Positions 9,664 through 27,327 of a stretch of DNA of 32,000 nt are shown piece by piece. The first letter of the stretch is position 1; each line of letters starts with the position of its first letter. Under the pieces are notes generated by a model. That model was given only the letters and a program-made list of their open reading frames with translations, was not told where the DNA came from and did no database searches. Source of the stretch: Candidatus Saccharimonadota bacterium (GTDB lineage Bacteria > Patescibacteriota > Gracilibacteria > Absconditabacterales > Absconditicoccaceae); NCBI GenBank assembly GCA_000503875.1, contig CP006913.1, positions 570,001-602,000 of the forward strand, in the 5' to 3' direction. The translations under genes were made by a program, and so were the position numbers.

Positions 9664-11205
<1,542 letters not shown>

Positions 11206-11376: not shown

Positions 11377-13899
11377 ATGTTAGATATTATAGCAATTTCA
11401 TATAAAAACATATGACCATTCAAAGGAGATCCAATTTCTTTGTTTTTTCTACAAGGAAAATATCTCATCAAAGCACCTATAGGAACTGGTAAAAGTTTTC
11501 TATTTTTTGATTGACCAATTTATTGATTATACAAATACAATACAAGAAATCTTTTAAACAACACTTCTTCAGAAGGACAAATCAAAATATTGTTTACATT
11601 CGAAAATGAAACTCGACTAATTATTAGACATATTACCAAAGCAAAAATCAAAGAATCATGCACATCAACCCTCTATAAAGTACAAAATTATGAAATAATA
11701 CCAGAAGAAATAATCAAAAAAAATGAAGATATAGAAGTCTATATCAAAAAATCTGGCGCTATTTTGGAAAAAATAGAATTTAAGAACGAAACAGATCTTC
11801 AACAAACATTTCTTTCTTTTTTGCCTCCCAAAGAAGTTTTTGTAAATACCGTATTTTTGATGCAAGATTCAGACAATATTTTTGAATTACTACCAAGTGA
11901 AAGGCTTACTGTGCTCAAAAATGTATTCTGACTCCTAGGAATCGATGAAGCCAAAGAAATAATCGCAGAAAAGAAAAAAGAAATCAGTTATAAACTCAAA
12001 AATTATTCAGATACCAGCAAATATGATGAAAAAACACAGTTTCTTATCAAGAAACTTTTCCAAAACCATCAACAATTACAAAAAGAACCAATAGAAGAAA
12101 TCAAAGAATTGATTGATAAAAAGAATAAAAGTTTACAGGAATTAGAGCTTATTCAAGAAAAAGTTACTATACAAGATTTGGACATAAGTAATTTTTGAGC
12201 AGATATAAACCTAGAAATAGATATAATAATTCAAAAAGAAAAAGACAAGCATAAAAAAATTCATAATCAGCTAGAGAATATCCAAGAATCAATTAAAACA
12301 GTAAAACAAAAGCTAGACACTAAGAGACAAAATTTATTTTCTATTCAGAAAAACAGTCAAGAAGCTGAAGAAAATATCAAAAGCATTGAAAATAATAATT
12401 TTGAAATTATAAAAAAACAAGTAGAAGAGGATCAAGAACTATTACATCAAAAAGACAGTAACCTCCCCTATCAACATATCTCTCTATTTTTAGATAACTG
12501 TAGACTAAATACAGAACTAGAAGATTTTAGTAAACTCAAAGAAATTCAAGGGATAGAAAGCGTATATAGCATTATCAAACAACTTATAGAAAAAGGGAAA
12601 TCTCTTCAAGAAAAAATCAAAAATAATCAGCTTCTTATACAAAATAAACAATTAGAGCAAAAATCAGAACAAGAAAGATATATTCAATGAGAAAAAACAT
12701 TATTAGATCAACAAGGAGAATTAGAAAAACAACTTTTAGAAACAGAAAATCATCTAAAAACATTTGAAAATAATATAGAACAACAAGCTACTTTTTCATG
12801 TGAAAAGATACAGACAAATTGCCCATTCATCAAAATAATCAACAAAAAAACATTTGATCAACTTGAAGAACAAAAAAAAACTTTTGTAAATAAAAAAAAT
12901 GATCTCGAAAAAGCAATTTGAAATAAAAAAGAACAAAGAGAAAATATAAAAAAACAACAAGCTGAAATAGGCACCAAAGAAGTTGAACTCCTTGTACAAC
13001 AATATCAAGAAAACATATTACTTCAAGAAAAAGCAACCACAACTATCAAAGAATTTCTCAATAATATAGAACGAAAAAACATAGAAACAGACTACCAATC
13101 ATACATAACAATTAAAAAGGAAAAAATAGCAAAAGAACTACAACTCAAAGAAGCAGAAAATCTGCAAAAGAAAAAAGAAGAATATATACAACATATAGAA
13201 AAAAACAAAGAAATCGAAAAACGTATCAAACAAGAAATACAAGAGAGTGAAAATGAAATACAAAGCTTTGAAAATAATAAAAAAACAATTGAAGAACAAA
13301 TTCAGAATATTAATTATGAAAAAATACTACAAGCTGAAGAATATAACAATCAATGTATCACTATCCAACGCGATATTGCGAATATGATTAATGAGTTCAA
13401 AACTCTCCAAAGAGAAACAGAACTTCTCAAAAAACAAGAAAAACAAATAGGCAATCTATACAACATTTTTTCAAAAGAACTACTTCTTTTGGTATTACAA
13501 GATCACTTACCTATCCTAAATGATATAATAAATAATTATTTATCACAGATAGTTGAATATCAGATATCACTTAAATTAAATAAAACAAACAGTGACAAAT
13601 TAGAGTTAGAAGCCAATATTATTGATAAAGAGGGCGAAAGAGAAATCAAAAGTCTTAGTTGATGACAAAAAATTATTTTAAAACTTATTTGGATGCTTTC
13701 TATATCTTCATATATGAGATCACCAATATTATTTTTGGATGAAACTATAAATAACTTAGATACAGAGACTGTAAGTAAAGTTGCTGATATGTTGGAAGAT
13801 TTTGTAAAACAAAGAAATATAAAATTTTACACAGTTACTCATAATCAACAAATCCAAGATATGCAAATACGAGATAAAGTCTTGGAAATAACAAGATAA
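11377..13899 (+). CDS. SbcC/Rad50-family SMC-like ATPase (840 aa) with a long central coiled coil
   Basis: N-terminus MLDIIAISYKNIGPFKGDPISLFFLQGKYLIKAPIGTGKSFLFFDGPIYGLYK (Walker A G-T-G-K-S). About 550 aa of K/E/Q-rich heptad-like sequence follows. The C-terminus carries the ABC signature S-L-S-G-G-Q, with both Gly encoded by TGA TGA at 13660..13665, and Walker B ILFLDE. All 20-codon lines from 11881 to 13384 were checked and have no TAA/TAG. Confidence 0.85.
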
Positions 13900-13910
13900 A
13901 TATCATAGAC

Positions 13911-13938
13911 TTGAAATTTAGATAATTTTTAGTATCAT
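13911..13938 (+). promoter_or_regulatory. Candidate promoter for the transporter gene (TTGAAA, 16-nt spacer, TATCAT)
   Basis: ttgaaa at 13911..13916 and tatcat at 13933..13938, 34 bp upstream of the ATG at 13972. Confidence 0.3.
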
Positions 13939-13971
13939 CCCACTCCGTTACTATTTATTTAAACCAAAAGG

Positions 13972-15129
13972 ATGAAGAAATATAAAAATTTAATTCTTTT
14001 TCTAGTAATTACTTTCTTACGAAGTATCTTTTTGGCAATGGCCAAAATTTTCTTACGATCTGCACTCAAAGAAGATAATAGGACATTGGAGGAAATTGCT
14101 GGATATATCAGTTTATGAGCAACAATATCATATTTTATAGGTGGGGCGTTAAATTATACTTTTCGTAAAAAACCTATTGTGATTGTTTCATGAATAGTCG
14201 TTATTATATGCTTGATTTATGGATATATGACAGATTATTTTCCACTCAAAAATTTTGCATTTATTATTTCTATTATGTGATTTTTTTATGGATTACGACT
14301 TACCGTAAAAGGAATTCTTACCACTGTAGAAATCATGGAATCATGATTGGGTGAAACAAAAATCAATGCTATCACAAATATAGTTATATTCCTATGATTA
14401 TTAACAGGTTCTTATTGGTGATTTGATATATACGATCGTCTACAAGGCGTTGGTGTTATTTGACTTATTTGAACAGTTGCGTTAGCAACAATATTGATTC
14501 TTTTTACCAAATATGATATAAATTTCAAAAAACATACATTACATAGCGCAATAACAAAGAATATTCCAAACATTTTCTGATCTATTAAAAAATACTTTAG
14601 TTATCTTATTCCAATAGGAGTTTTACGAGCAATTTCTACTGCTGTAGGACAAAAAATGTTGGAAATAGGAATAGATATTATGAATAAAACACCAACAAAG
14701 GGAATTATAGTAATTGTTGTTTCTATGGTATGAGCAATAGTAGGACATATCATTTCTACTCCAATAATCAAAAGAAAAAGAGTTCTTTCTACATTATTAA
14801 CTATATTATTAGCTATTAGTATAATGTTTTTCCCCAATTTCTTAGCACAAAAAGATACATTTTTATTTATGATGTGATATAGTGCATATTTATGAGTTAT
14901 ATTCGGTGTTATCGTAAACTTAATAGAAGGAAGATTTTATCATCAAATAGGTGAAGACAATAGAAAAGAATTCTGATCTGCAGCTTATGGAATTATCACG
15001 AGTATTATTATCTTTCTTATTATGATTATAGGAAATAATGTCACTAAAAAGATTGGAATAAATGCAAGCTTTATCTTTTATTGAATAACAGTTGCTGCAA
15101 TTATCCCTTTTATAAGAAGAGTTGAATAA
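13972..15129 (+). CDS. Polytopic integral membrane protein, MFS-like transporter (385 aa; family uncertain)
   Basis: Continuous table-25 ORF (checked codon by codon) made of roughly 10-12 hydrophobic segments separated by short K/R-rich loops, e.g. NLILFLVITFL.., IVIVSGIVVIICLIYGY.., GIIVIVVSMVGAIVGHIIS.., ITSIIIFLIMIIG. The opposite-strand track ORFs 14601..14837 and 14920..15177 are shadows. Confidence 0.75.
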
Positions 15130-15183
15130 TCTCAAAATAAATTTAGAAATTTTCATATGATTATCAAAAAATGTCAACTAGAA

Positions 15184-15210
15184 CTCGCCTGAAAATAGGT
15201 GAGTTTTTTT
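15184..15210 (+). terminator. Rho-independent terminator after the transporter gene
   Basis: Stem ctcgcct (15184..15190) / aggtgag (15197..15203) with one G-U pair, 6-nt loop, then T7 at 15204..15210. Confidence 0.6.
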
Positions 15211-15269
15211 GTTTTTAAGTTTTTTGGAATATACTTGAGATAAGCAATTTTAGTTTATAGAAAACACGA

Positions 15270-17183
15270 ATGAAACAATTGATGTACAAAGTTATTGGGA
15301 TACTAATGATCTTACTAGGAAATATTGCATATATTCATGGACAATCAATAGATACTGAAAATATCGATAATTTTGACGTAAGTAACGCTACTACAAGTAT
15401 TAAAGATCTTAAATGAAGTATAGATACCATAACTGAAGAGCTTTTTGCCTTAGATGAAAAACAAAGAACAGAAGAATGAGTATCAGAACAATATAAAGAA
15501 ACAAGAGATGAAATAGTAAATGTGATTAATAGTATCAATACTACGACAGAAAAAGTAACAAGAATTTTACAACAGATTGCATTATATAAAAAAGAAATAA
15601 TAACTGCCAGTGAGGAAGTTAAAAATTCAAGAGTTTGAGGAGAAAATAGTAAAGAACGTATAAAGGAATTTTTAAATGTAATTTATAAATTAGATAATAA
15701 GCTTTATAACGAAGATGGAAGCGCTATCGATACAATCAAACTCTTAATTAATTCTGACAATGTACCACGTACACTTGCCAATGATTATGCAGTTCAATCA
15801 ATGATTGTTCAGCTCAACAATCTCATAGGAAATTTTGACGAAGAAGAACAATACCAAGTAGAAAATATACAAAAATTAAATACACTAAAAAAACAAGCTC
15901 AAACAAAACTAAAAGAATATAGTGTAGATCTAGAAAAACTTCAACAAAAAAAAAGTTATCTTTTACAATTTTTATGACTTTATAAAAGCGATAAAGATCA
16001 AAGAAAATATACTATAGCACAATTATTTGAAAGTACAAAAAGTGTGCATGAAAAAATTGAAGAAATGCTAAAAGATATCAGAAAATGAATATATAAATGA
16101 GATTTGACTATAGAAACAAAACTAAAAGAAATAGAAGAAGAAGAATCAAATCAAAAAAGATATCCAATATCACGACCTATTTATCCGATCAACGATATTC
16201 AAACATATTTTGGTGATTTAGATTTTCAAAAAGAACACTGATTTCCTCATTTGGGAATTCAAATAAAGGCAGAACAAGGAAATCCTGTTTACGCTGCTCG
16301 TGACGGTATCGTTTATCTTGTTGCTGACAATGAAGAAATTGGAATTAATCGAGCAATGATTATTCATACAGATTGATATGTAACCGTTTACGAATATCTA
16401 AATAGAACAACTATTAGTATAGGTGATGTAGTAAAAAGATGAGAATTAATCGGTTATAGTTGATGAGAGCCTGGAACAAGAGGAGCATGATTTATTTCAA
16501 AATGACCTAATCTAACGTTTATGGTATTTAGGAACGGAGTTCCATTAGATCCATTTGATATTTTGGATGCAAGTATTGTTCAAGATAAATCAGTACTACC
16601 AACAGGATATCATATCAAATATTTAAGAGATAAATATGCAAGACCTATCGATATTACAACGCTTTCCGTAATGACAGGAAGTTCTGATGATGAAAGAGCA
16701 TATCAATTTCTTAGATTATATGGGGTTGGTATCTATAAACATATTCAATTCCGAGAAGATGCGACGAAAAACACAAATATTGATAGAGATGTGGTTATTT
16801 GTATCGCTTTTGCAGAATCTACACTTGGTAAATATTTAAGTACAGCCAATAATATTGGAAACGTAGGAAATGATGATAGTGGAAATAGAGTTGCTATGTG
16901 ATGAGCACTTGCTGGAGCTAGGGCAATTGCACTTACATTAAACAATCAACATTTAGGACACTACCATACTATCAATCAGCTTTCAAGATATGGAAATCCT
17001 GATGGAAAAATCTATGCATCATCGCCTATCAACTGGCAAACTAACGTATTGAAATGTCTTTCACAAATCAAAGGATATTATATTCCAGAAGACTTCCCAT
17101 TTAGAGTCGGACCAAATCCAAATCTCTCTGAAGAACATGAACAATTAGTTGAAATACTAAAATCAAAAAGTTTTAAGAAATAA
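15270..17183 (+). CDS. Secreted EnvC-like cell-wall protein (637 aa): signal peptide, coiled coil, degenerate (non-catalytic) M23/LytM domain, and a C-terminal GH73-like lysozyme-fold domain
   Basis: MKQLMYKVIGILMILLGNIAYIHG (signal), followed by about 280 aa of coiled coil. The M23 fold reads ...YPIS-[CGA]-PIYPINDIQTYFGD...HLGIQIKAEQGNPVYAARDGIVYLV...IIHTDGYVTVYEYL...GELIGYSGGEPG...GPNLTFMVFRNGVPLDP. The zinc/catalytic positions are replaced: H-x-x-x-D is H-L-G-I-Q, Y-x-H-L is Y-E-Y-L, and H-L-H-F-E is N-L-T-F-M. The C-terminal part IAFAESTLGKYLSTANNIGNVGN...KIYASSPINWQTNVLKCL resembles the GH73 blocks E-S-G-W-G-K...N-N-L-F-G-I and Y-A-T-D-P-x-Y. The frame was checked from 15270 to 17183. 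Confidence 0.9.
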
Positions 17184-17192
17184 TTTTAAAAG

Positions 17193-17216
17193 GATGCCCA
17201 GAAGGCATCTTTTTTT
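17193..17216. terminator. Hairpin terminator between the convergent EnvC-like gene and cysS (probably bidirectional)
   Basis: gatgcc (17193..17198) / ggcatc (17204..17209), 5-nt loop, T7 on the plus strand (17210..17216) and a T/A-rich tract on the other side. Confidence 0.6.
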
Positions 17217-17226
17217 CTGATATAAA

Positions 17227-18702
17227 TTAATTTTTTGTTATTTCATAGCCATCTTTGTTATCTTTTACATTCCATCAGAGCTCAGTTATCTTATTCCTAA
17301 GTTCATCAGCCAATGCATAATTTTTATCTTGCTTAGCTTGAATTCTTTGATCAGCAAGAGCAGTTATTTCGGCAGGAATATCAAGTTTTATTTCTTCAAT
17401 AAGATCAAATAAACCAACTTTTAAAAAACGTTTTTCTAATCGATATAATAAATTAATAATTTCTTCATTTATATCACTAATATAAGTATTAATTACAGCT
17501 ATTACTTTTGGTGTATTTATATCATCACAAATCGCATCCAAAATTTCTTTATGAAATTTTCTTGCTTGATCAGTTTTTAGATCTTTTCAAAGCTCAATAA
17601 AAGATCAATCTATAGTAATATTTTCAAAATTTAATTTTCTTATCTGTACTTTTTTTTTAAGATTATATCTACTTTGTTTGGCTACATCCATACTATTTCG
17701 AGTAAAATCGAAAAAACTACGATAATGAGTTGTAAAAAAGAAATATCTAATATCCAAATAATCATATCATTTATCCAAAACTTCATAAGGAGAAACTATA
17801 TTACCATCAGATTTTGACATTTTTTTACCATTCATATTCACAAACTGATGATGAATTCGGTATTTTACCCATGGATGAACATCAAAAGCACATTCAGATT
17901 GTGCAATTTCATTTGTATGATGAATAGGAATTAAATCATATCATCCATGATGAATATCAAATTGGTTTCATAAATATTTACTAGACATTGCACTACACTC
18001 AGCATGCCAACCTGGAAATCAAATTCATCGAGGACTTTCTCGTTCCATATCTCTCTTACCACTACCTACATGAAATTTCCACAAGGCAAAATCAGTAAGA
18101 TTTTTTTTTCATCACATATCAACTCTCTCTCATCATTGAATTCCCTCTAAATGTTTTTTATAATTTAAACCAAGTAGTTTACCATAATCACTAATTTTAC
18201 TGGTATCCATATACACTCCATCACCATCAATAATATATGTATATCATTTCTCTTCCAACATTTTAACAAGGTCTATCTGTTCTTGAATATATTCTGTAGC
18301 CCTAGGCATAACATCAAATTCATCTATATTCAATCATTTAAAAAAATCTCTAAAAATTTGTTCATATTTTTTTGCAACATCTCGAGCAGATATTCATTCT
18401 TTTTTTGCAGCCTTTTCCATTTTTTCATCACCATCATCACTATCTCAAGCCAAATGACCAACATCAGTAAAATTACTCATAGATATTACTTTATATCAAA
18501 GAATATTTTTTATTACATTTCTGATTAAGTCAGCCGTAAAAGCAGCTCTTACATTACCAAAATGAGGCATACCATAAACCGTAGGTCCACAACTATAAAA
18601 ACCCACAAAATCTTTTTTTGGTCAATGATAATTAGGATCTTCCATCAAGGGTACAAATTCTTCTTTTTGACGAGTAAGAGTGTTATAAAGATGCAGTTTC
18701 AT
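17227..18702 (-). CDS. cysS: Cysteinyl-tRNA synthetase (491 aa)
   Basis: MKLHLYNTLTRQKEEFVP; CGPTVYGMPHFGNVRAA (HIGH-like); ..ESP-x-GIGFPGWHAECSAM; FDIHHGGYDLIPIHHTNEIAQS; GKKMSKSDGN. No in-frame TAA/TAG between 18702 and 17230 (checked). Track ORFs 17275..17541 and 18622..18816 are in frame. The start is placed at the conserved MKLHLYNT rather than at the upstream extension to 18816. Confidence 0.95.
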
Positions 18703-18820
18703 AGAGAGAAAAAATATATAAAGTACACTTCTTGTAGTGTTTTTGAATATAAATTCAATTGAAAAGACAGCAGAAAAATATAGAACAAGCCCTGCACATT
18801 TAAATTTTGAAACCAAAAAA

Positions 18821-20113
18821 ATGAATACACCAAAGCTTTCAAATTACTTTTCACAGAAATCTCCATCAGCAATTAGAATGGCACAAATGGAATTTGCCAA
18901 AAGAAATGATGGCACAAAAGCAATCAATGTGTCTATTGGAAATGTTTCGTTACCCATGCATCCAGCGATGCAAAAAAGAATGTTTGAATTAAATAATCCA
19001 GATAGTCCTCTAAAAGATTGAGTAGTAAAATACACACAAACAGTTGGGAATCAAGAGACAATTGACGCATTTTTGAATATCGTGAAATCCAGTTGATTCC
19101 CAACAGAAAATCTTTTTTGTCAGATCACCGATGGAGGAAGCCAAGCTATGGAATTAGTCCTTCTTGGAGTGAGTGATGCCAATGACAGACCGATCTTATT
19201 GATAGATCCAGCCTATACTAATTATATGAGTTTTGCTCAAAGAGTAGGAAGAAAAACCATCACTATTACGAGAAACCTACAAGATGATGGAACCTTTACC
19301 TTACCAAGCAAAGAAATAATAGAAGAAACCATAACCCAATATAATCCATCAGCTATTGTGGTTATCCCCTATGATAATCCTACGGGACAATATTACACTC
19401 AGGAAGATATGATAACAATTGCTAAACTTTCCGTAGAACATAATATGCGAATAATTAGCGATGAGGCCTATAGAGAATTACAATATCATCACCAAAAATC
19501 AACAAGCATTCGAGGTATAGACAATACTCTAGTTCCAGGTATTGAAGGAAGAAGAATCAGCATAGAAAGTGCTTCAAAAGTACGAAACGCCTGTTGATTA
19601 AGAATAGGAGCAATCATCACGGACAATGCAGAATTTCATCAACAAGCAGTAGCAGAAAACACAACGGCTCTTTGTTCAAGCACTATTGGACAATACATTT
19701 TCGGATCATTAGCTCATCTCAATAAAGAAGAACTTCAAGCTCGATACGAACAACAAAGAACCTATTATGGAAGTATGCTCAATACGTTAACTTCGGCGTT
19801 TAAAGAGGTATTACCAGGGATTATTGTTTCTAGTCCAGACGCTTCTATCTACTCCGTAATTGATGTAAAACATATTGCAAAGCCAGATTTTGATGCTAAA
19901 ACTTTCGTACTTTTTTGTGCACAACAAGGATATACTCTGATAGATAACCAAAAATATACAGTGCTCACCTCTCCTATGAGTGGATTCTACAACAACAAAG
20001 AAAACCCAGGGAAAACCCAAATGAGAATTTCTTTTGTAGAATCTCCTGAACAGATGAAATTAGTTCCTTACATTTTCGCAGAACTTTTTAAACAATACGA
20101 GAACACAAGATAA
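18821..20113 (+). CDS. Fold-type I (class I/II) PLP-dependent aminotransferase (430 aa); substrate not assignable from sequence alone
   Basis: Track ORFs 18737..19021, 19148..19597 and 19775..20113 share one frame and are joined only by TGA. Motifs: LLIDPAYTNY, VVIPYDNPTGQ, IISDEAYREL, and the PLP-lysine block S-A-S-K-V-[CGA]-N-A-C-G-L-R-I-G, where the conserved Gly is TGA at 19595..19597. Confidence 0.9.
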
Positions 20114-20132
20114 AGAATCTGATTATACAAAT

Positions 20133-20166
20133 GATGGTAGCATAACAAATAATGCTATCATTTTTC
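20133..20166 (+). terminator. Rho-independent terminator after the aminotransferase gene
   Basis: gatggtagcat (20133..20143) pairs with atgctatcatt (20152..20162) with two G-U pairs, followed by a T-run. Confidence 0.5.
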
Positions 20167-20260
20167 TTATAGGAACAATTGATTTTTCTCACCATTTCAT
20201 TACGCTACACGCAATAGTCGATTCTCTGTAATCCTCTAGCAATTTACCTTACGTAAAACC

Positions 20261-22696
20261 ATGTTCTGAATTCTTGGGAACAATGCAAGGAATCTCCTCT
20301 ATATCAAAAAGTTTAACGATAAAAAAGCTATTCGTCTGGCGAACAACAAACTCGAGACAAAAAACTTCTTATCAGAAAGAGGAATCCCTTTCGCCAAAAC
20401 TTATGGAATCATATCCAATCGTAATGAACTTTATGACTTTGATTTTTCTTATTTACCAAAAAAAACATTTGTCATAAAACCAAATCAATGAAGTAAATGA
20501 GAATGAATTTTGATAGTAAAAAATATCACCAAAGAAGAACAACCAATACACAAGAAAAAAAATACAATAATAGATAATTTGGAAAAACGACGAGCGAAAA
20601 TAATACCCTATAAAACAATTCCAATCAATAGAAAAGAACTTTATCATGTAGGAGAAAAATCAATCAATGACGAAACATTTAGAAGATATTTGCTTGATAT
20701 CATCGATTGAAAATATTCTATGACAATGGGAAATGACAAAGTAATTATAGAAGAAAAACTAATTCCAGGAGAATTATTTAAAGAATTTTGTGAACGATGA
20801 TTAGCAGATATTAGAATCATTGTTTTCAATCTTGTTCCTATTGCTACAATGATTAGAGTGCCTACAAAATATTCCAACGGAAAGGCAAATTTAGCACAAT
20901 GATGATTAGGGCTTGGAATAGAAGTATGAACAGGAAAAATAACATCTATGCTTCGAAAAAACAAAGTATATACACGTAAATTTCCCAAAGAGTTTGGTCA
21001 TTTTTTTGGAAAACAAATTCCTTATCGAAACGATATTTTATTCCTTTCATCAAAAGCTCAATATTATGTAAACCTTGGATATCTTGCTCTCGATCGAGTA
21101 ATAACAAATGAGGGACCAAAACTTTTGGAAATCAATGCAAGAGCCGGTTTAGAGGTACAAAAAGTAACAAACACTCCTCTAGAAAAAATATTAGAAAAGA
21201 TTGAAGATCTCAATATTCAAGATCCAGAAAAATGAGTAGAAATAGCAAAAACTTTGTTTAGCAAAGAATCTAATGATCTTATCAAACAACAAAAAATTCT
21301 TTATTTATCTCAATACGGGAAAGTTATTTTAAAAAATGATGATGATGAAACTATAGATGTTATCGTAGAAATTGATCTTAATAAGCAAAATAATTATGTA
21401 ACGCCAAGTATATATGATAAAATCAAACAAAAATCTGATTTTATTTTGGATATGTATGAAAACGACATAATTCTTAAAAAACCAAAACTTATTGCAAAAG
21501 AACAAATAAGTGAAAATAAAATTATATTAGGAAGAAAAACTGCAGAAAAATTTCTCATAAAACCTATTCACAAAACATTCGAAAAGATAGAAATTATCTC
21601 TTCTGATAAATTGCTTCCGCTGGAGACCAAAGAACTACATATCATCGATGAAAGATTAGAAAAGCTCTCCAAAAGATTAAACCTCTCAGCAAAACTCAGA
21701 CCAACAAACTATTTCAATGAACTTGATAATTTTATTACACGAAAAGGTAATTATAATCCTATTTTTCAATATAAACGACCAACTGAAGAAAAAATATTAG
21801 AAACAAAAAATGATTTAGAAAAACTTCAAGAAAAAACAAATAAATTAGAAAGTCCTATAAAAAAACTTTTTTTAGAAAAAGCAGATGAATTAACAAATAA
21901 ATTATTCTTACTACAATCTTATACAAAACAAAATTTTAAAAACATAGCAATATATAATGAGAAACTTTTTGGTTCATTTGATCAGGAACTTCTCAAAAAT
22001 TCAAAAGAAAAAGTGTTTTCACAAAAGGAAAATAATCAAGAAATATTGGGGGAACCATTGAAATTATCAGAAATAGAACAACTTATAGAACGCTATCTTG
22101 CTGAAAAAAAAATATATGGTGTTGATATCGTATTCAGTTATGATAATCTTTCTAGAATTTCTGTCATTATGGGAAAAGAAATCAGAATCAGTATTTCTAA
22201 ACATGGTATTTTTAGAGAAAAAGAAATTCTTTCAATTCTGGCTCATGAAATAGATACACACCTTGTAAGACATCTTAACGGATTAAAATCTTGACGAAAA
22301 ATATTTAAATCATGAACAGGATATTATCTAAAGGATGAAGAAGGTTTAGCTATATGGAATGCAAGTAAATTTTTGCCTGAAGAATATGAAAAAGACAGTA
22401 TATACAAAAAATATATTTTAATAAACGATTGAGAAAAAATGGATTTTAAAAAACTATGTGAAACAGCTAGATTCTATTATCCAGAAAGAAGTAATGAATG
22501 ATTATTTAAAACAGCTATTAGAATAAAGAGATGATTAATAGATTCTTCAAGAATTTGAAAAGGAACAAATGCAATTCAAAATAAAATATATTTAGAATGA
22601 TACGAAAAGATAAAAGAAATTTTCAAAAATTGAGGAGAAATCGATAGATTATACAAGGGGAAAATTAAAATAGAAGATTTAGATTTTATAAAATAA
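20261..22696 (+). CDS. Fusion protein (811 aa): N-terminal ATP-grasp amino-acid ligase (alpha-L-glutamate-ligase-related, sugar-transfer-associated type) plus C-terminal DUF1704/QEGLA-family (MATCAP-type) metallocarboxypeptidase
   Basis: Track ORFs 20510.., 20948.. and 21254..22294 share one frame with the ATG at 20261; only TGA intervenes. ATP-grasp blocks: FVIKPNQGSKGEGILIV (20477..20509; three Gly are TGA), GLADIRIIVF, VPTKYSNGKANLAQGGLGLGIEVGTGKI, GPKLLEINARAGLEVQ (21128..21154). DUF1704 blocks: KLRPTNYFNELDNF..NPIFQYKRP, H-E-I-D-T-H (HEXXXH, 22244..22261), E-E-G-L-A (22337..22351), RIKRGL..GKGTNAIQNKIYLEGY. Stop TAA at 22694..22696. Confidence 0.9.
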
Positions 22697-22705
22697 ATAT
22701 TTCCA

Positions 22706-23584
22706 ATGAAACTACTAAGATTATATGAATCTAGAGAAATAAGTAAAAAAAAAGAGAGATTTGATACAGAAGCAAAAATAATATGAGGCATAGAGACTTA
22801 TTTTATGCCATATTTAGATATATATTATGATGGGAAATTCAGAAACATTATAGATTGAAAAGAGATCGAAGATGCTGATATATACTGGATACCATCTACT
22901 GTAAAAAAATGAATTAGCATGAATTCTTGATTAATATATTATCTAGGAATATTAAAAAAGAAAAAGATAATGGATCCTTTTAAATATTATGGAATCCTTT
23001 GAGGAAAATTTCAACAAACATTGTTTTTTAATCATTATTGACACAAGACACCAAAAACATTTTTTTTCCAAATAACCCAAGAACATAAAAAATCCTATAT
23101 AGATATTATAGAAAAAAATTTCACTTATCCATTTTTAACCAAAGATTTATATTTGGAAAAAGGGAAATGAGTAATTCTTATTAAAGATAGAGAAGAATTA
23201 ATAAACAACATAAATAAATATACAGACCAAGGAATATTAATACAAGAATGTATAGAAAATACCTGAGAATATAGAATATTATGTGTTTGAAAAAAAATAA
23301 TAGGAAGCTTCAAAAGATATAATCCTAACCATTACAAAAACAATACATACAAATGAACACTCTTTGAAAAAGCAGAATTAACGAAAGAAACAAAAAAAGA
23401 AGTTCTGAAAATGGTGGCTAGATATGGCATAGAATTTGCTGGTATAGATCTCTTAATCGGTAAAGATTGAGAACTCTATTTTTTGGAAATAAATTCATGA
23501 CCTCTCTACAAAAGAGCCGAAGAAGTTTTGGAAATAAACGTAGTAAAAGAACTTTTATTGTATCTTAAAAAAGGTGGAAAATAA
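22706..23584 (+). CDS. RimK/GshB-like ATP-grasp ligase (292 aa)
   Basis: Continuous table-25 ORF (checked) starting 9 nt after the previous stop. Motifs: YPFLTKDLYLEKGKGVILIKD, GILIQECIENTGEYRILCVGKKIIGSFKRYNPNHYKNNTYKGTLFEKAEL, GIEFAGIDLLIGKDGELYFLEINSGP. These follow the RimK pattern (K-P..G-S-x-G-x-G-V, Q-E-F-I..D-x-R, R..F-x-x-N..G-G, G-x-D-L..E-x-N..P). Confidence 0.85.
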
Positions 23585-23605
23585 TATTTATATACTACCA
23601 TAATA

Positions 23606-24856
23606 ATGAAAAAGATTGCTGTAACATGAACTAAATGAAAAACAACAATAATAAGATTAATCAATTTTATTTTATTAGAATTATGAAATAAGACATTGTC
23701 TGTCGATTCAGATTGAGTATATATAAACTGAAAACAGAAATTAGACAAAAAAGATTCTATAAACATCTATTGATTACTACCCTGAAAATGCCCATGACGT
23801 TTCCTATATTTAGGATATGATTATAAGAATAAATATTGGAAAATAGATTATGCAGTATTAGAAACAATTATTGGCTGTTATGTTACCTGACTTTGATATA
23901 AAAAACACGATATATGAGTTTTTTCAAATGTATTTGAAGACCATATAGGAGGCCTATGCTCCGCAATCAAAACAAGAGAAGATTTAGCGTTAAGAAAATA
24001 CAGAATTATTTCAAAAATTAAAACAGGATGATATTTTGTATACAATATGGATGATCAGCTAATAGCAAACAATATGGATGATCATATATCAAATGAAATT
24101 AAAAAAATATGAGTAACAAAAGATTTAGAAAAATTTCAATGAAAAAAAACATGTATATTCATTTCAAAAAAAGAAGTTAAAATAAAAATTAGCAACAAAA
24201 TTATTAAATTTGATCTATCCAATAACAAGTTTTCTTTCTATTGAGAATATGAACCAGCATTATACAATATTGGTTTATCTATTTGATGATTATTAGGATT
24301 ATTAGGAGAAGAAATATTTATATCAAAACACAAACAAATAAAAGAAAGTATAGATAGATATACAACTGATATATTAGGAGGAAGAATGATCTTATTGGAA
24401 CAAAATGGCAGAAAAATTATATTGGATTATGCACATGAAAAACAGTCATTATCAGCAGTTCTAAAGCTAGCAAATACATTGAAAACAGGGAAATCTATAG
24501 GTGTTGTAAGACTATCTCCCGAAAGAGAAGATAAAATATATCATAACATAGGGAAAAGTATTGCAAGCCTTGCTGATGAATTTATTGTATACGATAAAAT
24601 TGATTGAATAGAAGACAAATCATATACAATAAATACAAAAGAAATAAAAAACAAGAAAAGAAACCCATGAGAAATAATGCATTTATTTGCTGAATGAATT
24701 AAAACAAAAAATAAAAAGGTACAAGAAATTATTTATCGAAAAGATGCAATAAAATATTGATTAAAAAACACTAAAAAAGGAGATGTAATAGTAATCATAG
24801 TAAAAAACAGCAAAGAAACAGGTGTTTTTATAAAAAAATACCTTAAGATAAAATAA
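23606..24856 (+). CDS. Mur-ligase-family protein resembling the M (Mur-ligase-like) domain of cyanophycin synthetase CphA (416 aa)
   Basis: P-loop I-A-V-T-G-T-K-G-K-T-T with Gly encoded by TGA at 23627..23629 and 23636..23638. LSVDSDGVYINGK (compare CphA T-T-D-G-I-Y-I). DYAVLETIIGCYVTGLGYKKHDIGVFSNVFEDHIGG (compare CphA A-V-L-E-T-A-R-G-G-I-L-R-x-G-L...N-I-x-x-D-H-L-G). ILDYAHEK (compare D-Y-A-H-N-P). The frame was checked; track ORF 24386..24607 is in frame. It starts 21 nt after the ATP-grasp gene. Confidence 0.85.
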
Positions 24857-24906
24857 GCTGATACAAAAGGAAGAAAACACAGAAGAAAATTCTTAATCAC
24901 TTTCCC

Positions 24907-24935
24907 TTGATTCCCCCACTCAAATCACTTAAATA
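24907..24935 (+). promoter_or_regulatory. Candidate promoter for the 7TM gene (TTGATT, 17-nt spacer, TAAATA)
   Basis: ttgatt at 24907..24912 and taaata at 24930..24935, in the 109-bp gap before the ATG at 24966. This is a weak -10 match. Confidence 0.25.
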
Positions 24936-24936
24936 T

Positions 24937-24960
24937 GAGGCAATTTATTTGCCTCTTTTC
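24937..24960 (+). terminator. Hairpin plus T-tract immediately upstream of the 7TM gene. It is either a terminator/attenuator for the ligase genes or a 5' leader hairpin.
   Basis: gaggcaa (24937..24943) / ttgcctc (24949..24955), 5-nt loop, then ttttcttctt running into the ATG at 24966. Confidence 0.4.
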
Positions 24961-24965
24961 TTCTT

Positions 24966-26492
24966 ATGAAAAAACTCTCATTACTCATAACAATACTTCT
25001 TTGACTTTTTGTTTTTCCAGCATTTGCTGAGGAACAAGCACACAATGCTGCATGATGTGAAAATAGGACATATGACATCAAGGGTTTATCTGATATCAAA
25101 AAAGGTCAAACTGCTGAATATAGTATGGTTTGGGCAAAAGATAAATATCTTTGACCTATAAGCTTTAACTCTATAAAATTCACTTTAAGCAAAAACAACA
25201 AGGTTATTTCAAAGAATAATTCTGATTTTTTCTCATTTACTCCTTCTGAATTAGGAAAATATACATTACAAGTAGAAGCAATCGATAACCAAAACTGTTA
25301 TAGTAAAATAAGCAAAACCATAACTACTCATGATAAAATCATTCTCTATATAGGGAAAGCTAGCGAAGATCTTCAAGTAGAATTCGATGATACTTTCAAA
25401 AAAAACAACACTCTTTTTAAGAAGATCATCATAAAAGAAAAAAAACTTTTTGGAGAAGATGAATTACTATGAGAACTCGCTGAAAATAGTAGTTATATTA
25501 AAAACAGTTCTATTATTATTATTAATATAAGCAATTTTGATAGTTTCTTTCAATTATTATGAAATATTAATAAGACAGAGACGCTCAACTTAAACAAAAA
25601 AGATATTTATCTTATAACAGATCTTAATAAATATTTTCTCAAAAGAATAGTTGCAAAATATCTCAATACCGTATGAATAGAAAAAATTTACACCGTAAGC
25701 GATAAAGATTTCTTTAGTGTTCTTTCAAAACTTTCTTTTAAAAAAGATTTACAAAACGATCCTACAATAACGACATTTTCATTATTATTTCAAGAAGCGC
25801 CCAAATATATTCTGATTTCTTATTTAATAGATAATTTAATTTACAATTGATTTCCTATTGATTTAATAGGTATATTACTAGTTTTATGTATAGCAACACT
25901 AGTCATAAGCATCTTTAGACAAGTTATTTGATTCTCTGTCTTTGGAATTTATAGTCCTCTTCTTTTTGGGCTTGCCATGGCAATTCTCAATATAAAATTA
26001 AGTCTTATCCTTTTAGCTATTGGAATTTTAGCCAAGGTCTTAACTCATCTTCTCAACAAAAAAATATATCTTCTTTTTAATACTAAATTATCTGTCTTAG
26101 TCGTTCTTTATTTTCTACTGACAATCATAGTTCTTGGGCTAGATAAAATTCTTCACACCAACATTATAAATCTGGATATATTCAATAATGGATTTATTAT
26201 TTTCCCTATTATGTTTATTATTATTGTTACTGATAAAGTATTCAACGAAGGATTTAAGGTATTTAGTCTAGGATGGTGGATTTCTTTTGGAGAATTTTTA
26301 ATTGTAAGTTTCTCTGTATATGGATTATTAAATCGATGATGGATGAAACATATATTATTATCATACCCAGAAAGTATTCTTATTGTTCTTTTGTTACATA
26401 TAATTATCGGTAGATTTACAGGTCTTCAATTATTAGAATATTTCCGTTTTATGCCTCTTATCAAAAAACATTTCGATAGTGAAGAAGAATAG
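24966..26492 (+). CDS. Membrane protein (508 aa): signal peptide, ~290-aa extracytoplasmic domain, and a C-terminal 7TM_transglut-type seven-helix module (the partner of RimK-related ATP-grasp ligases)
   Basis: MKKLSLLITILLGLFVFPAFA (signal). The C-terminal half is seven hydrophobic helices: FRQVIGFSVFGIYSPLLFGLAM..., IIFPIMFIIIVTDKV..., and the family-typical tail YPESILIVLLLHIIIGRFTGLQLLEYFRFMP (26409..26450; compare G-R-Y-T-G-Y-R-L-x-E-x-x-R-F). The frame was checked from 24966 to TAG at 26490..26492; track ORF 25977..26339 is in frame. Confidence 0.85.
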
Positions 26493-26565
26493 AAAAAGAT
26501 CTTGTAACATTTTTATATCAGATTCGTAGTATAGATATAATTCTTTACTTGTTAATACAAAAAAA

Positions 26566-27327
26566 ATGGACAAAAAACGATTATGACTTGTTTCAACCGC
26601 AGTAATCTGTGGAACACTTATCTTTGTTGGATATGTTATTAAAACACCGTACAAGCAACAAATTTCTAGCCAACAAGGAATTACAAACACCGTTAGCGTT
26701 GCTGGAGAAGGAAAAAGCTTAACAGCACCTGATACACTGTCTATCAATATTCAAATCTCAGAATTAGGAAAAACAACAAAAGAAGCTCAAGACAAAGCAA
26801 ATGCAAAAATTGCTAAGATCAAGGAAGCTCTCAAAGAATATAATATCCCTAAACAAGATATCCAAACAACAAATCTGAATGTATACACAGAATACGATCG
26901 AACAAATAATACAAGAAAACTTCTTGGATATAGATCTCAACAAGATTTAAATATCAAAGTAAAAGGAGAAAACTTCTCAGAAAAATGAGCAAATGTTATC
27001 AACAAGATATCAGAAATTGGGGAAATCAACGTAAACAATATAAATTTCATTCTCGATGATAAATCAGTAGCAATGGAAGAAGCTCGTGAAAAAGCATTTA
27101 ATGATGCAAAAGCAAAAGCTGAACAACTTGCAAAATTAGGAGGATTAACACTTGGACAACCAACAATGATTACTGAACAAGAAATTCAATATAACTATGA
27201 TAGACCTATGTATGCTATGGAAGCAAAAGCTATGGATTGAGCTGGTAATGTAATGAACGACCAATCACTTTCAGCTGGACAATTGGAAATGACTGCTAGA
27301 GTAAATATCGTTTATGAATTAAAATAG
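26566..27327 (+). CDS. SIMPL-domain (DUF541, BP26/YggE-like) envelope protein with an N-terminal anchor (253 aa)
   Basis: MDKK-x-LGLVSTAVICGTLIFVGYVI (anchor), then TVSVAGEGKSLTAPDTLSINIQISELGKTTKEAQDKANAKI...LLGYRSQQDLNIKV...AREKAFNDAKAKAEQLAKLGGLTLGQP...LSAGQLEMTARVNIVYEL. These are the typical SIMPL blocks. The frame was checked codon by codon; stop TAG at 27325..27327. Confidence 0.85.

What the first reader, a model, noticed from the sequence alone, without database searches (positions are those of the whole stretch)
20261..22696. Ligase and carboxypeptidase ('writer' and 'eraser') fused in one 811-aa protein, paralleling the tubulin TTL/MATCAP logic
Residues 1 to ~325 are an ATP-grasp amino-acid ligase (K-P-N-Q-G-S-K-G-E-G; K-A-N-L-A-Q-G-G-L-G-L-G-I; E-I-N-A-R-A-G-L). 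Residues ~480-811 are a DUF1704/QEGLA domain with H-E-I-D-T-H (22244..22261) and E-E-G-L-A (22337..22351). As far as I recall, DUF1704 is the family of eukaryotic MATCAP, the metallocarboxypeptidase that removes the C-terminal Tyr of alpha-tubulin, and the enzymes that re-add Tyr/Glu (TTL/TTLL) are ATP-grasp ligases. A single bacterial polypeptide carrying both activities implies a reversible C-terminal amino-acid addition/removal cycle, or length control of a polymer.
Basis: partly seen in the sequence, partly recalled or inferred. Interest (0 to 1): 0.7.

Follow-up and report, generated by a model that had tools for sequence, protein, structure and literature searches.

The report
Ligase–peptidase fusion with Glu-tailed membrane partner
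An uncultured SR1 bacterium encodes one protein joining a RimK-like amino-acid ligase, a degenerate retropepsin-like domain and a MATCAP-type carboxypeptidase, and its conserved 7-transmembrane gene neighbour nearly always ends in a short run of glutamates, which points to a bacterial add-and-trim cycle on a membrane protein's tail.

Summary
Window 20261-22696 (+) is one intact 811-aa gene, provided UGA is read as Gly (code 25). All 17 in-frame stops are TGA, and the source is SR1 bacterium RAAC1_SR1_1.

- **N-terminal domain:** a RimK/RloC-type ATP-grasp ligase (PF14397, 1e-44). Its best fold matches are RimK, not TTL.
- **C-terminal domain:** a MATCAP-type gluzincin (PF08014). It matches human MATCAP 7z5g at Foldseek E=3e-13, and HExxxH and the EEG glutamate are invariant.
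residues ~340-440 form a retropepsin-like domain of the RimB/RloA family. Its D-T-G motif is lost in SR1.

The fusion is widespread, with relatives in at least 574 species genomes of Absconditabacteria, Gracilibacteria and Peregrinibacteria. It is always linked to a 7TM_transglut (RloB-like) membrane protein gene.

My new finding is that this partner ends in 2-6 glutamates in 120/120 database homologues and in 70/73 genome loci. The RloB-type partners of unfused ligases in three proteobacterial lineages do not.

Most likely the ligase extends, and the MATCAP domain trims, the cytoplasmic oligo-Glu tail of the 7TM partner. This would be a fused RimK/RimB-like writer-eraser acting on a membrane protein. 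No biochemistry exists. I rate it a new variant of a known kind.

The parts
20261..22696 (+). Fusion gene, 811 aa under code 25 (17 in-frame TGA=Gly, stop TAA): ATP-grasp ligase + retropepsin-like domain + MATCAP-type carboxypeptidase
20261..21265 (+). Residues 1-335: RimK/RloC-type ATP-grasp ligase domain (PF14397). Invariant residues include K73, P74, G80/G82, E164, D183, R185, R199, A209-N210, G214, D278, E290, N292 and R294.
21278..21580 (+). Residues ~340-440: beta-rich retropepsin-like domain of the RimB/RloA (PF05618) lineage. The catalytic D-T-G is replaced by D-L-N (EIDLNK at residue 370), so it is probably non-catalytic.
21608..22693 (+). Residues ~450-811: MATCAP/QEGLA-type gluzincin carboxypeptidase domain (PF08014)
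22244..22261 (+). H-E-I-D-T-H (H662, E663, H667): the HExxxH zinc-binding and catalytic motif. It aligns to HEIGTH of human MATCAP (E281).
22337..22351 (+). E-E-G-L-A (E693, E694). E694 corresponds to the third metal ligand, E316, of TMCP1/MATCAP.
22706..23584 (+). Accessory RimK-like ATP-grasp ligase (292 aa), 9 nt after the fusion gene. It is part of a hypervariable accessory slot.
23606..24856 (+). Accessory Mur-ligase-like protein (416 aa), closest to the M domain of cyanophycin synthetase (TIGR02068 positions 482-860, E=2.6e-44). It is part of the variable slot.
24966..26492 (+). RloB-like partner, 508 aa: signal peptide, ~275-aa extracellular Ig-like (Y_Y_Y-like) domain, 7TM_transglut (PF14402), then a cytoplasmic tail ...GRFTGLQLLEYFRFMPLIKKHFDSEEE
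26481..26489 (+). GAA GAA GAA: the three C-terminal glutamate codons of the 7TM partner (stop TAG at 26490-26492). This is the proposed acceptor/substrate tail.
20133..20162 (+). Terminator-like hairpin after the upstream aminotransferase gene. It suggests the cluster starts a new transcription unit.
24937..24955 (+). Terminator-like hairpin between the Mur-like gene and the 7TM gene. It could be an attenuator or separate transcription; function not tested.
26566..27327 (+). SIMPL/DUF541 protein gene. It follows the 7TM gene in the window and in two other SR1 loci (L005, L095). Membership of the system is uncertain.

Best explanation
The gene encodes a cytoplasmic three-domain enzyme. (i) The first domain is a RimK/RloC-type ATP-grasp ligase that adds amino acids, most probably L-glutamate, to a C-terminal carboxylate. 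(ii) The second is a RimB/RloA-derived retropepsin-like domain that has lost its catalytic D-T-G in this lineage and probably serves as an oligo-Glu/peptide-binding or dimerisation module. (iii) The third is a MATCAP/TMCP-type zinc carboxypeptidase that removes C-terminal residues one at a time.

The enzyme works with the co-encoded RloB-like 7TM membrane protein, whose cytoplasmic C-terminus is a conserved oligo-glutamate tail (EE to EEEEEE). The ligase domain extends this tail and the MATCAP domain trims it. Tail length would then be set by the balance of the two activities (ATP and Glu supply against hydrolysis), and would modulate whatever the 7TM protein does at the envelope. In this particular genome a RimK-like ligase and a cyanophycin-synthetase-M-like ligase in the variable slot may further decorate the tail.

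Shown here: the domain architecture, intact catalytic residues, fold similarities, gene linkage and the conserved Glu tail. Inferred: Glu specificity, the tail as substrate, opposing activities on the same substrate, and a regulatory role.
For: - **Architecture and intactness:**
- **Ligase domain:** PF14397 at 1e-44 and TIGR02291 as the best NCBIfam hit at 6.5e-54. It shares 31% identity end to end with Legionella RloC ('alpha-L-glutamate ligase-like protein'), with catalytic columns invariant. In the domain model (pLDDT 82) the best PDB folds are RimK, including RimK bound to RpsF (5zk6), then ArgX/LysX and the CphA1 G domain. All of these ligate onto a C-terminal residue of a protein or peptide.
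- **Peptidase domain:** phmmer hit to human MATCAP at E=1.9e-9, with HEIDTH/HEIGTH, EEGLA/EEGLA and KRG..D(S/T)S aligned. Foldseek gives E=3e-13 and TM 0.62 to 7z5g. H662, E663, H667, E693 and E694 are invariant in 32 SR1 sequences, and the equivalent residues are invariant in 19 distant fusions. Members of the MATCAP family remove C-terminal Glu as well as Tyr and act as deglutamylases, and E281 and E316 are essential (PMC10499314).
- **Middle domain:** retropepsin folds including 2pma (DUF785). The P0231 middle domain hits PF05618 at 4.6e-11, and D-T-G is retained in about 20/165 non-SR1 fusions. RimB and RloA cleave poly-Glu (PMC11957791, PMC11957051).
- **Partner linkage:** the 7TM_transglut gene is adjacent in Peregrinibacteria and Gracilibacteria. 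In 73/80 species loci it lies immediately upstream on the same strand, often overlapping. In SR1 it stays linked across a variable cassette.
- **Glu tail:** 120/120 partner homologues end in 2-6 Glu, against 5/386 control proteins. In the genome loci, 70/73 end in two or more Glu and 73/73 end in Glu. Mixed GAA/GAG codons argue for protein-level selection.
- **Contrast:** RloB-type partners of unfused RloC in Legionella, Aeromonas and one further lineage do not end in Glu.
- **Topology:** consistent with a cytoplasmic tail.
- **Independent ligase-peptidase linkage:** the FGase-QEGLA-GshB-like ATP-grasp module in Shinella and Roseateles.
Against: - There is no biochemical or proteomic evidence for any step.
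- Glu specificity is inferred only from family resemblance. RloC-type ligases are themselves uncharacterised, and the protein scores below the curated cut-offs of TIGR02291 and TIGR00768.
- A genetically encoded EE tail could instead be a docking motif, a primer or a pseudo-substrate.
- The proteobacterial contrast set is small (three lineages).
- The variable accessory genes (GNAT, YdjC, extra ligases) look more like a biosynthetic or decorating cassette than a simple regulatory switch.
- In Vampirococcus lugosii no 7TM gene was seen within 7 kb downstream of the fusion, and only about 2.7 kb of contig was available upstream. One genome locus (L061) lacks an upstream partner.
- The inter-domain geometry of the full-length model is unreliable (pTM 0.48).
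- Iyer et al. 2009 (Mol Biosyst 5:1636), which defined PF14397 and PF14402, could not be read and may already contain related predictions.
Confidence: 0.5

Rival explanations
1. Polymer synthesis and export. The ligase, helped by accessory ligases, makes a free poly-alpha-glutamate or related peptide polymer that the 7TM protein exports or anchors at the cell surface. The retropepsin-like and MATCAP domains control chain length, release or recycling. The EE tail of the 7TM protein is only a primer or a tether that keeps the enzyme at the exporter.
For: RimK makes free poly-alpha-Glu in vitro, and RimB stimulates this (PMC11957791). In P. aeruginosa, loss of the secreted RloA proteases is rescued by rloB or rloC mutations, which fits a toxic exported product (PMC11957051). 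The Pfam name of PF14397 links the family to cell-surface polymer synthesis. The variable cassette of GNAT, YdjC, RimK-like and CphA-M-like genes resembles a decorating or biosynthetic locus.
Against: A 7TM protein with no ATPase or recognisable transporter fold is not an established peptide exporter. The strict conservation of a terminal Glu run in exactly the lineages where the peptidase is cytoplasmic and fused is not required by this model. Both peptidase-type domains are cytoplasmic here, unlike secreted RloA.
Confidence: 0.25
2. Unrelated substrates. The ligase and peptidase act on other targets, for example ribosomal protein S6 as with RimK/RimB, or small peptides and amino-acid scavenging in a host-dependent CPR cell. 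The 7TM linkage would reflect localisation or co-regulation only.
For: RimK/RimB target RpsF (PMC11957791). The best structural match is RimK, including its RpsF complex. The CPR organisms involved have reduced genomes and depend on scavenging.
Against: Adjacency to the 7TM gene is tight and often overlapping in 73/80 species loci. The Glu tail on that very partner is near-universal. The ligase is RloC-type, whose partner in Proteobacteria is also the 7TM protein RloB, rather than bona fide RimK (TIGR00768 scores 48 bits against a cut-off of 143).
Confidence: 0.12
3. A true TTL/MATCAP-like tyrosination-detyrosination cycle, with aromatic residue addition and removal, as emphasised in the first reader's title and in NCBI's name 'tyrosine/phenylalanine carboxypeptidase domain-containing protein'.
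For: There is MATCAP family membership, and human MATCAP removes C-terminal Tyr. The tubulin tail it acts on is ...EEY, that is an oligo-Glu tail plus Tyr.
Against: No TTL-family signature or fold match was found for the ligase. The partner tails end in Glu, never in Tyr or Phe, in 193 sequences. The ligase groups with Glu ligases.
Confidence: 0.05
4. Artefact: the reading frame is a pseudogene or two separate genes wrongly joined by reading through stop codons.
For: Under the standard bacterial code the frame has 17 stops, and the ORF listing shows only fragments.
Against: All the stops are TGA and lie at conserved Gly columns. The organism belongs to Absconditabacteria/SR1, which uses code 25. 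More than 120 full-length orthologues exist, as do hundreds of standard-code orthologues in Peregrinibacteria with the same three-domain architecture and no stops.
Confidence: 0.01

Closest known systems
RimK / RimB (/RimA) ribosomal protein S6 glutamylation system, and the RimBK hybrid enzyme (Little et al. 2025, PMC11957791)
   Same: An ATP-grasp alpha-L-glutamate ligase extends a protein C-terminus that already ends in Glu-Glu. A retropepsin-like PF05618 protease removes the added glutamates, giving a bacterial writer/eraser pair. Ligase and protease are sometimes fused in one chain (RimBK). RimK is the best structural match of the ligase domain.
   Different: The ligase here is RloC-type, not a member of the RimK equivalog. 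The domain order is ligase then retropepsin, whereas RimBK is the reverse. The retropepsin domain has lost D-T-G in SR1. An additional MATCAP-type exopeptidase is present. The presumed substrate is a 7TM membrane protein, not S6.
RloABC operon of Pseudomonas aeruginosa and other Gammaproteobacteria (Lormand et al. 2025, PMC11957051)
   Same: It has the same three protein families: an RloC-type ATP-grasp (31% identity to Legionella RloC), an RloB-type 7TM_transglut membrane protein with the shared G..TG(L/Y).LLE..RF motif, and an RloA-type PF05618 retropepsin. Genetic data tie all three to one process at the envelope.
   Different: In CPR the retropepsin is fused to the ligase and is cytoplasmic, whereas RloA is secreted. 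The extracellular domain of the 7TM protein is Ig-like/PKD instead of an inactive transglutaminase. A MATCAP carboxypeptidase domain is added. The 7TM protein carries a C-terminal oligo-Glu tail that is absent from the three proteobacterial RloB lineages examined.
Eukaryotic MATCAP/TMCP1-TMCP2 (KIAA0895L/KIAA0895) with TTL/TTLL ligases on tubulin tails
   Same: The peptidase family and fold are the same (PF08014; HExxxH plus EEG; Foldseek E=3e-13). The substrate logic matches: an acidic, Glu-rich C-terminal tail that ATP-grasp ligases lengthen and a MATCAP-type carboxypeptidase shortens. TMCPs are deglutamylases.
   Different: The ligase is RimK-like, not TTL/TTLL. Writer and eraser are in one polypeptide. 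The substrate is not tubulin. There is no evidence for Tyr. The C-domain is about 21% identical to human MATCAP.
Proteobacterial 'flavohemoglobin expression-modulating QEGLA motif protein' (TIGR02421)
   Same: It belongs to the same PF08014 domain family. It is also found next to an ATP-grasp ligase (GshB-like) in Shinella and Roseateles.
   Different: The SR1 domain scores 78 bits against a cut-off of 339, so it is not an equivalog member. Its motif is EEGLA, not QEGLA. The proteobacterial proteins carry or neighbour an FGase amidohydrolase domain and pair with a different ATP-grasp subfamily. No 7TM partner was seen there.
Cyanophycin synthetase CphA1 (relevant to the accessory genes)
   Same: The window's 416-aa Mur-like protein is most similar to the CphA1 M domain. 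In CphA1 an ATP-grasp domain extends a C-terminus and the M domain ligates an amino acid onto side-chain carboxylates.
   Different: Here the genes are separate. There is only a partial match (151 bits against a cut-off of 850). The pair is not conserved even in the closest relative, and no evidence shows that it acts on the same tail.

Membership tests
MATCAP/TMCP metallocarboxypeptidase family (Pfam PF08014, gluzincin) | Significant match to the family profile above the curated threshold | tested here: met
   PF08014 at 64.1 bits against a gathering score of 27, residues 490-698. phmmer to human MATCAP chains 7z5g/7z6s gives E=1.9e-9.
MATCAP/TMCP metallocarboxypeptidase family (Pfam PF08014, gluzincin) | HExxxH motif plus a downstream EEG glutamate as third metal ligand (E281 and E316 in TMCP1) | tested here: met
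   H662-E663-x3-H667 and E693-E694-G695 align to HEIGTH and EEGLA of MATCAP. They are invariant in 32 SR1 sequences, and the equivalent residues are invariant in 19 distant fusions. Residue roles are from PMC10499314.
MATCAP/TMCP metallocarboxypeptidase family (Pfam PF08014, gluzincin) | MATCAP fold | tested here: met
   In the AF2 model the C-domain has pLDDT of about 90. Foldseek top hits are 7z5g/7z6s at E=3e-13 with TM(target) 0.62, followed by M32 carboxypeptidases.
MATCAP/TMCP metallocarboxypeptidase family (Pfam PF08014, gluzincin) | Carboxypeptidase activity removing C-terminal Tyr/Glu from an acidic tail | not testable with these tools
   This needs an enzyme assay. A conserved Glu-terminated candidate substrate is encoded in the same locus.
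TIGR02421 QEGLA equivalog (proteobacterial) | Score above the curated cut-off; QEGLA motif | tested here: not met
   78.4 bits against a cut-off of 338.65. The motif is D-E-E-G-L-A. Ten other stand-alone relatives of the C-terminal domain found in the representative search are also below the cut-off.
RimK-family alpha-L-glutamate ligases (TIGR00768) and the RloC-type 'alpha-L-glutamate ligase-like' family (TIGR02291) | Score above the curated cut-offs | tested here: not met
   TIGR02291 scores 183 bits against a cut-off of 314. It is the best hit but sub-threshold. TIGR00768 scores 48 bits against 143. The protein is related to these equivalogs but diverged from them.
ATP-grasp ligases (PF14397 ATPgrasp_ST subfamily) | Profile match and the ATP-grasp catalytic set: P-loop-like G-rich loop, ATP-binding Lys, the E-E hinge, the K/R-x-N-L-x-x-G-G substrate loop and the D...E-x-N Mg2+ ligands | tested here: met
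   PF14397 at 153 bits against 31. K73, G80/G82, E164, D183/R185, R199, A209-N210, G214, D278, E290 and N292/R294 are invariant across SR1, Peregrinibacteria-type fusions and Legionella RloC. Residue roles are assigned by analogy with RimK/GshB from my own knowledge.
ATP-grasp ligases (PF14397 ATPgrasp_ST subfamily) | ATP-grasp fold closest to C-terminus-directed peptide ligases | tested here: met
   The domain model has pLDDT 82 and pTM 0.79. Foldseek gives RimK 7qys/5zct/5zk6 at E=2e-9 to 2e-8, then ArgX/LysX and CphA1.
TTL/TTLL tubulin ligases (PF03133) | TTL-family profile or fold match | tested here: not met
   There is no PF03133 hit for the fusion at E<=0.1. No TTL/TTLL structure is among the top 50 Foldseek hits.
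RimB/RloA retropepsin-like proteases (PF05618) | Retropepsin fold and family profile match | tested here: inconclusive
   The SR1 middle domain has no Pfam hit even at E<=10. Its fold matches retropepsins and 2pma/DUF785 only weakly (E 0.1-0.5, probability 0.9-0.96, with the full-length model as query). The homologous domain of the distant fusion P0231 hits PF05618 at 4.6e-11, above the gathering score. hhalign against Legionella RloA gives probability 48% and E=1.9e-4.
RimB/RloA retropepsin-like proteases (PF05618) | Catalytic D-(T/S)-G motif | tested here: not met
   The SR1 protein has D-L-N (EIDLNK). At that column 0/117 SR1 fusions have D-T-G, against about 20/165 non-SR1 fusions.
RloABC system | Co-encoded RloC-type ligase and RloB-type 7TM_transglut protein | tested here: met
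   PF14402 scores 34 bits against 25 for the window protein 24966-26492. Linkage is conserved.
RloABC system | Inactive transglutaminase ectodomain on RloB; separate, secreted RloA protease | tested here: not met
   The ectodomain is Y_Y_Y/PKD-like with no transglutaminase hit. The retropepsin-like module is fused to the cytoplasmic ligase and has no signal peptide.

The most novel reading that the evidence does not exclude
A prokaryotic 'tail code'. In a whole clade of CPR bacteria (Absconditabacteria, Gracilibacteria, Peregrinibacteria), a 7TM envelope protein with a sensor-like ectodomain is regulated by reversible C-terminal polyglutamylation. Both writing and erasing would be done by a single fused RimK-like ligase / MATCAP-type carboxypeptidase. 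Lineage-specific accessory enzymes (an extra RimK-like ligase, a cyanophycin-synthetase-M-like ligase, GNAT, YdjC) would diversify the mark. This would be the first post-translationally glutamylated bacterial membrane protein and the first assigned function for bacterial MATCAP homologues. It would show that the ligase/MATCAP logic of tubulin tails has a bacterial counterpart, and possibly an antecedent.
Probability: 0.35. Interest if true: 0.85.

Novelty: new variant of a known kind. Interest (0 to 1): 0.68.

Why it matters
- **Bacterial MATCAP homologues:** the PF08014/QEGLA proteins are numerous and have no known biochemical function. This locus gives a concrete, testable substrate hypothesis: a Glu-terminated tail encoded in the same operon.
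- **Protein glutamylation in bacteria:** so far only ribosomal protein S6 and one Legionella effector target are known to be glutamylated. A membrane-protein target would widen the scope of this modification.
- **The RloABC system:** RloABC matters for P. aeruginosa stress tolerance, biofilm and antibiotic susceptibility, but its chemistry is unknown. The CPR version has all enzymatic parts in one chain and a candidate substrate tail next door, so it could serve as a simplified model for how RloC and RloB cooperate.
- **Evolution:** the locus shows the 'ATP-grasp writer plus MATCAP eraser on an acidic tail' arrangement outside eukaryotes.

Tried and rejected
1. **Standard-code reading.** Rejected. 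It gives 17 TGA stops, all at conserved Gly columns.
2. **tRNA and Rfam scans of the window for a suppressor or recoded tRNA.** Nothing found.
3. **Pfam scan of the SR1 middle region alone.** No hit even at E<=10. The domain was identified only through structure and through less-degenerate relatives.
4. **Reading Iyer et al. 2009 (PMC3268129),** the source of the PF14397 and PF14402 definitions. The paper is not held.
5. **Cluster look-up for taxon names of distant fusions.** Almost no names were returned. Taxonomy came instead.
6. **Strict Rosetta-stone expectation,** that is separate adjacent RloC-type ligase and QEGLA genes in other phyla. Not found. Proteobacterial QEGLA genes pair with a GshB-like ATP-grasp and FGase, or stand alone.
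7. **Glu tail as a general property of RloB-type proteins.** Rejected for Legionella, Aeromonas and one further lineage. The metagenome scan meant to enlarge this control returned only 4 loci, 3 of them near-identical.
8. **Full-length AF2 model for inter-domain geometry.** pTM is 0.48, so it is not interpretable, and the ligase core was mis-modelled until the domain was predicted alone from a clean alignment.
10. **Glu-tail length variation as simple GAA slippage.** Not supported. Codons are mixed GAA/GAG.
11. **TTL-like nature of the ligase.** Rejected.


Full report
**1. The observation**

Under the standard bacterial code, window 20261..22696 (+) is interrupted 17 times. Every interruption is TGA and the frame ends in TAA. 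The window has 25-37% G+C. The exact 811-aa product obtained with UGA=Gly is deposited as a hypothetical protein of candidate division SR1 bacterium RAAC1_SR1_1, phylum Absconditibacteriota.

The TGA codons lie on columns that are glycine throughout the family, including the ATP-grasp G-S-K-G-x-G loop and, in homologues, the glycine of EEGLA. Database homologues show either G or W at these columns, the W being a code-4 mistranslation.

Pfam finds PF14397 (ATPgrasp_ST, residues 10-315, 1e-44) and PF08014 (MATCAP, formerly DUF1704, residues 490-698, 1.5e-17). NCBIfam finds TIGR02291 (alpha-L-glutamate ligase-like, 6.5e-54) and TIGR02421 (QEGLA, residues 463-810, 6e-22), both below their equivalog cut-offs.

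**2. The C-terminal domain**

A plain phmmer search of PDB sequences hits only human MATCAP (7z5g/7z5h/7z6s, E=1.9e-9). It aligns HEIDTH to HEIGTH, DEEGLA to TEEGLA, IKRGLIDSS to AKRGQTDTS and KIYLEGY to QVYLDG.

In the full-length AF2 model the domain has pLDDT of about 90. Foldseek returns MATCAP first (E=3e-13, TM 0.62), then M32 gluzincin carboxypeptidases.

H662, E663, H667, E693 and E694 are invariant in 32 SR1 orthologues, and the equivalent residues are invariant in 19 fusions that share only 27-34% identity with the SR1 C-terminal domain in the representative search. In TMCP1 (=MATCAP), E281 (HExxxH) and E316 (EEG) are required. The family removes C-terminal Glu as well as Tyr and acts as a deglutamylase (PMC10499314).

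**3. The N-terminal domain**

A clean alignment shows all ATP-grasp catalytic columns invariant. It also shows 31% end-to-end identity to the RloC-type 'alpha-L-glutamate ligase-like protein' of a Legionella rloABC operon.

The domain-only model (pLDDT 82, pTM 0.79) is closest to RimK, including the RimK-RpsF complex. Next come ArgX/LysX and the G domain of cyanophycin synthetase. All of these ligate onto the C-terminal residue of a protein or peptide. No TTL/TTLL appears in the top 50. The ligase is therefore RimK/RloC-like, not TTL-like.

**4. A third domain**

Residues ~340-440 form a beta-rich domain. It matches retropepsin folds (Ddi1 RVP, HTLV protease) and 2pma, a Legionella DUF785/PF05618 protein.

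In distant fusions the homologous region keeps K-I-D-T-G and ...IIG.RDL..FLID. One such region (P0231) hits PF05618, the RimB/RloA family, at 4.6e-11, above the gathering score.

In all 117 SR1 fusions examined the D-T-G is lost at that column. In this protein it reads D-L-N, so the domain is probably non-catalytic here. RimB and RloA are retropepsin-like enzymes that cleave poly-glutamate (PMC11957791, PMC11957051).

**5. Distribution**

- The three-domain fusion has more than 120 full-length orthologues in Absconditabacteria, including Vampirococcus.
- At least 1,854 90%-identity clusters match a profile of distant fusions. The named ones are Peregrinibacteria, Gracilibacteria and 'Patescibacteria'.
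The best 80 all come from that clade.
- IMG already auto-labels these proteins 'alpha-L-glutamate ligase-like protein/TIGR02421 family'. NCBI calls them 'tyrosine/phenylalanine carboxypeptidase domain-containing'.
- I found no paper describing them.

**6. Gene context**

In the window the fusion gene is followed by four genes:

- a RimK-like ATP-grasp (22706-23584);
- a Mur-ligase-like protein closest to the cyanophycin synthetase M domain (23606-24856);
- a 508-aa protein (24966-26492) with a signal peptide, an Ig-like ectodomain and a PF14402 7TM_transglut domain;
- a SIMPL protein gene.

In Peregrinibacteria and Gracilibacteria the 7TM_transglut gene lies directly upstream of the fusion gene. 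In 73 of 80 species loci it is upstream on the same strand, often overlapping the start.

Within SR1 the two genes stay linked, but the genes between them differ even between 83%-identical relatives:

| Locus | Genes between the fusion and 7TM genes |
|---|---|
| Window | RimK-like + CphA-M-like |
| L095 (83% identity) | GNAT + 558-aa protein |
| L096 | YdjC |
| L005 | two RimK-likes + YdjC + 530-aa protein |
| L006 | GNAT |

Ligase, retropepsin and 7TM protein are the three families of the proteobacterial rloABC operon. There, loss of the secreted RloA proteases is rescued by rloB or rloC mutations (PMC11957051).

**7. The key new observation**

The 7TM partner in the window ends ...FRFMPLIKKHFDSEEE. 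The evidence for a conserved Glu tail is:

- All 120 database homologues (29-98% identity) end in a run of 2-6 Glu. Run lengths 2/3/4/5/6 occur in 9/52/19/31/9 sequences.
- In the 73 genome loci the tails are EE (48), EEE (20), EEEE (2) and ...QE (3). None lacks a terminal Glu once TGA read-through artefacts are corrected.
- The codons are mixed GAA/GAG.
- The signal peptide, the large ectodomain, the seven hydrophobic segments and the K/R-rich tail put the C-terminus in the cytoplasm (inference).
- RloB-type partners of unfused RloC ligases share the preceding G..TG(L/Y).LLE..RF motif but end ...AKARS (Legionella)...GATPGKDK (Aeromonas) and ...NADTDGH.

A Glu-Glu C-terminus is exactly what RimK extends on ribosomal protein S6 (PMC10375531 abstract; PMC11957791). 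An oligo-Glu tail is what MATCAP-family enzymes trim on tubulin.

**8. Mechanism**

The best-supported reading is that the fused enzyme docks on the 7TM partner, extends its cytoplasmic Glu tail through the ATP-grasp domain, and trims it through the MATCAP domain. The degenerate retropepsin domain would act as a Glu-tail-binding or dimerisation module. Accessory enzymes in the variable slot may decorate the tail.

The main rival is polymer synthesis and export, with the tail acting as a primer or tether. I cannot separate these two readings computationally. In both, the ligase acts at the 7TM tail.

**9. Independent support for ligase-MATCAP coupling**

On chromids of Shinella and Roseateles the QEGLA/MATCAP gene sits between an FGase amidohydrolase gene and a GshB-like ATP-grasp gene. 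In a Vibrio the FGase is fused to the MATCAP domain. The peptidase family therefore pairs repeatedly with ATP-grasp ligases, though of different subfamilies.

**10. Verdict**

The system is a new variant of the RimK/RimB and RloABC kind. It carries an added MATCAP eraser and a conserved Glu-tailed membrane partner that, within the literature I could search, has not been described. Nothing has been shown biochemically.

Noticed in passing
whole window (e.g. 8700-27327): The whole window is recoded (UGA=Gly, code 25). Every long gene (MetRS, CysRS, SbcC-like, M23 peptidase, aminotransferase and others) is fragmented by the table-11 ORF tool and becomes intact only when TGA is read through.
   Followed up: partly
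protein ids P0009, P0018, P0047 etc.: Many public homologues of SR1 proteins carry W where the true residue is G, because pipelines called these genomes with code 4. This corrupts conserved glycine motifs (e.g. KPNQWSKWEW). It degraded the first AF2 model of the ligase domain.
   Followed up: yes
window 22706-24856; L005 9441-13710; L006 9604-10047; L095 8436-10626; L096 8457-9146: The slot between the fusion gene and the 7TM gene is hypervariable within Absconditabacteria. Its contents are RimK-like + CphA-M-like ligase, GNAT + a 558-aa protein, YdjC alone, two RimK-likes + YdjC + a 530-aa protein, or GNAT alone. The 530-aa and 558-aa proteins are homologous to each other (28% identity) and have no Pfam domain.
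   Followed up: partly
L009 4454-8196 (Shinella plasmid), L010 3451-7213 (Roseateles), L007 5116-7107 (Vibrio sp. HDW18): There is a conserved proteobacterial three-gene module: N-formylglutamate-amidohydrolase-like (FGase), a QEGLA/MATCAP protein with an N-terminal extension of ~265 aa, and a GshB-like ATP-grasp. In Vibrio the FGase domain is fused to the MATCAP domain. Function is unknown, and the module looks like another amide-ligase/hydrolase pair.
   Followed up: partly
L003 (GCA_043816165.1, labelled Nitrospirota): A contig assigned to a Nitrospirota MAG has the same gene order as Peregrinibacteria loci L001 and L002 (7TM, fusion, QueA, SpoIIE, STAS, HEAT, MurJ, C39_2). It is probably a misbinned CPR contig.
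   Followed up: no
L014 4164-5918 (Halobacterium sp. DL1 plasmid): A 584-aa archaeal ORF, unannotated in the gene table shown, has a C-terminal half that is 31% identical to the SR1 ligase domain. The nature of its N-terminal half of ~280 aa is unknown.
   Followed up: no
L004 (Vampirococcus lugosii) and L061: The fusion gene has no detectable adjacent 7TM_transglut gene in these two loci. In Vampirococcus the 7TM homologue exists (P0486, ending ...KGEEE), but it was not seen in the 7 kb downstream of the fusion or in the ~2.7 kb of contig available upstream.
   Followed up: no
window 26566-27327; L005 15407-16183; L095 12293-13054: A SIMPL/DUF541 gene follows the 7TM gene in three SR1 loci. 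It may be a further, periplasmic or secreted, component of the system.
   Followed up: no
window 20261-20340 (residues 1-27 of the fusion): The N-terminal motif GILGxNARNLLYI is invariant from SR1 to Legionella RloC, yet it is modelled with low confidence (pLDDT<50). It is a candidate docking element for the equally conserved LLE..RF helix at the end of TM7 of the partner.
   Followed up: no
window 24937-24955: A terminator-like hairpin (7 bp stem, 4 GC pairs, T-rich tail) sits in the 109-nt gap just upstream of the 7TM gene. It may uncouple or attenuate its expression relative to the ligase genes.
   Followed up: no
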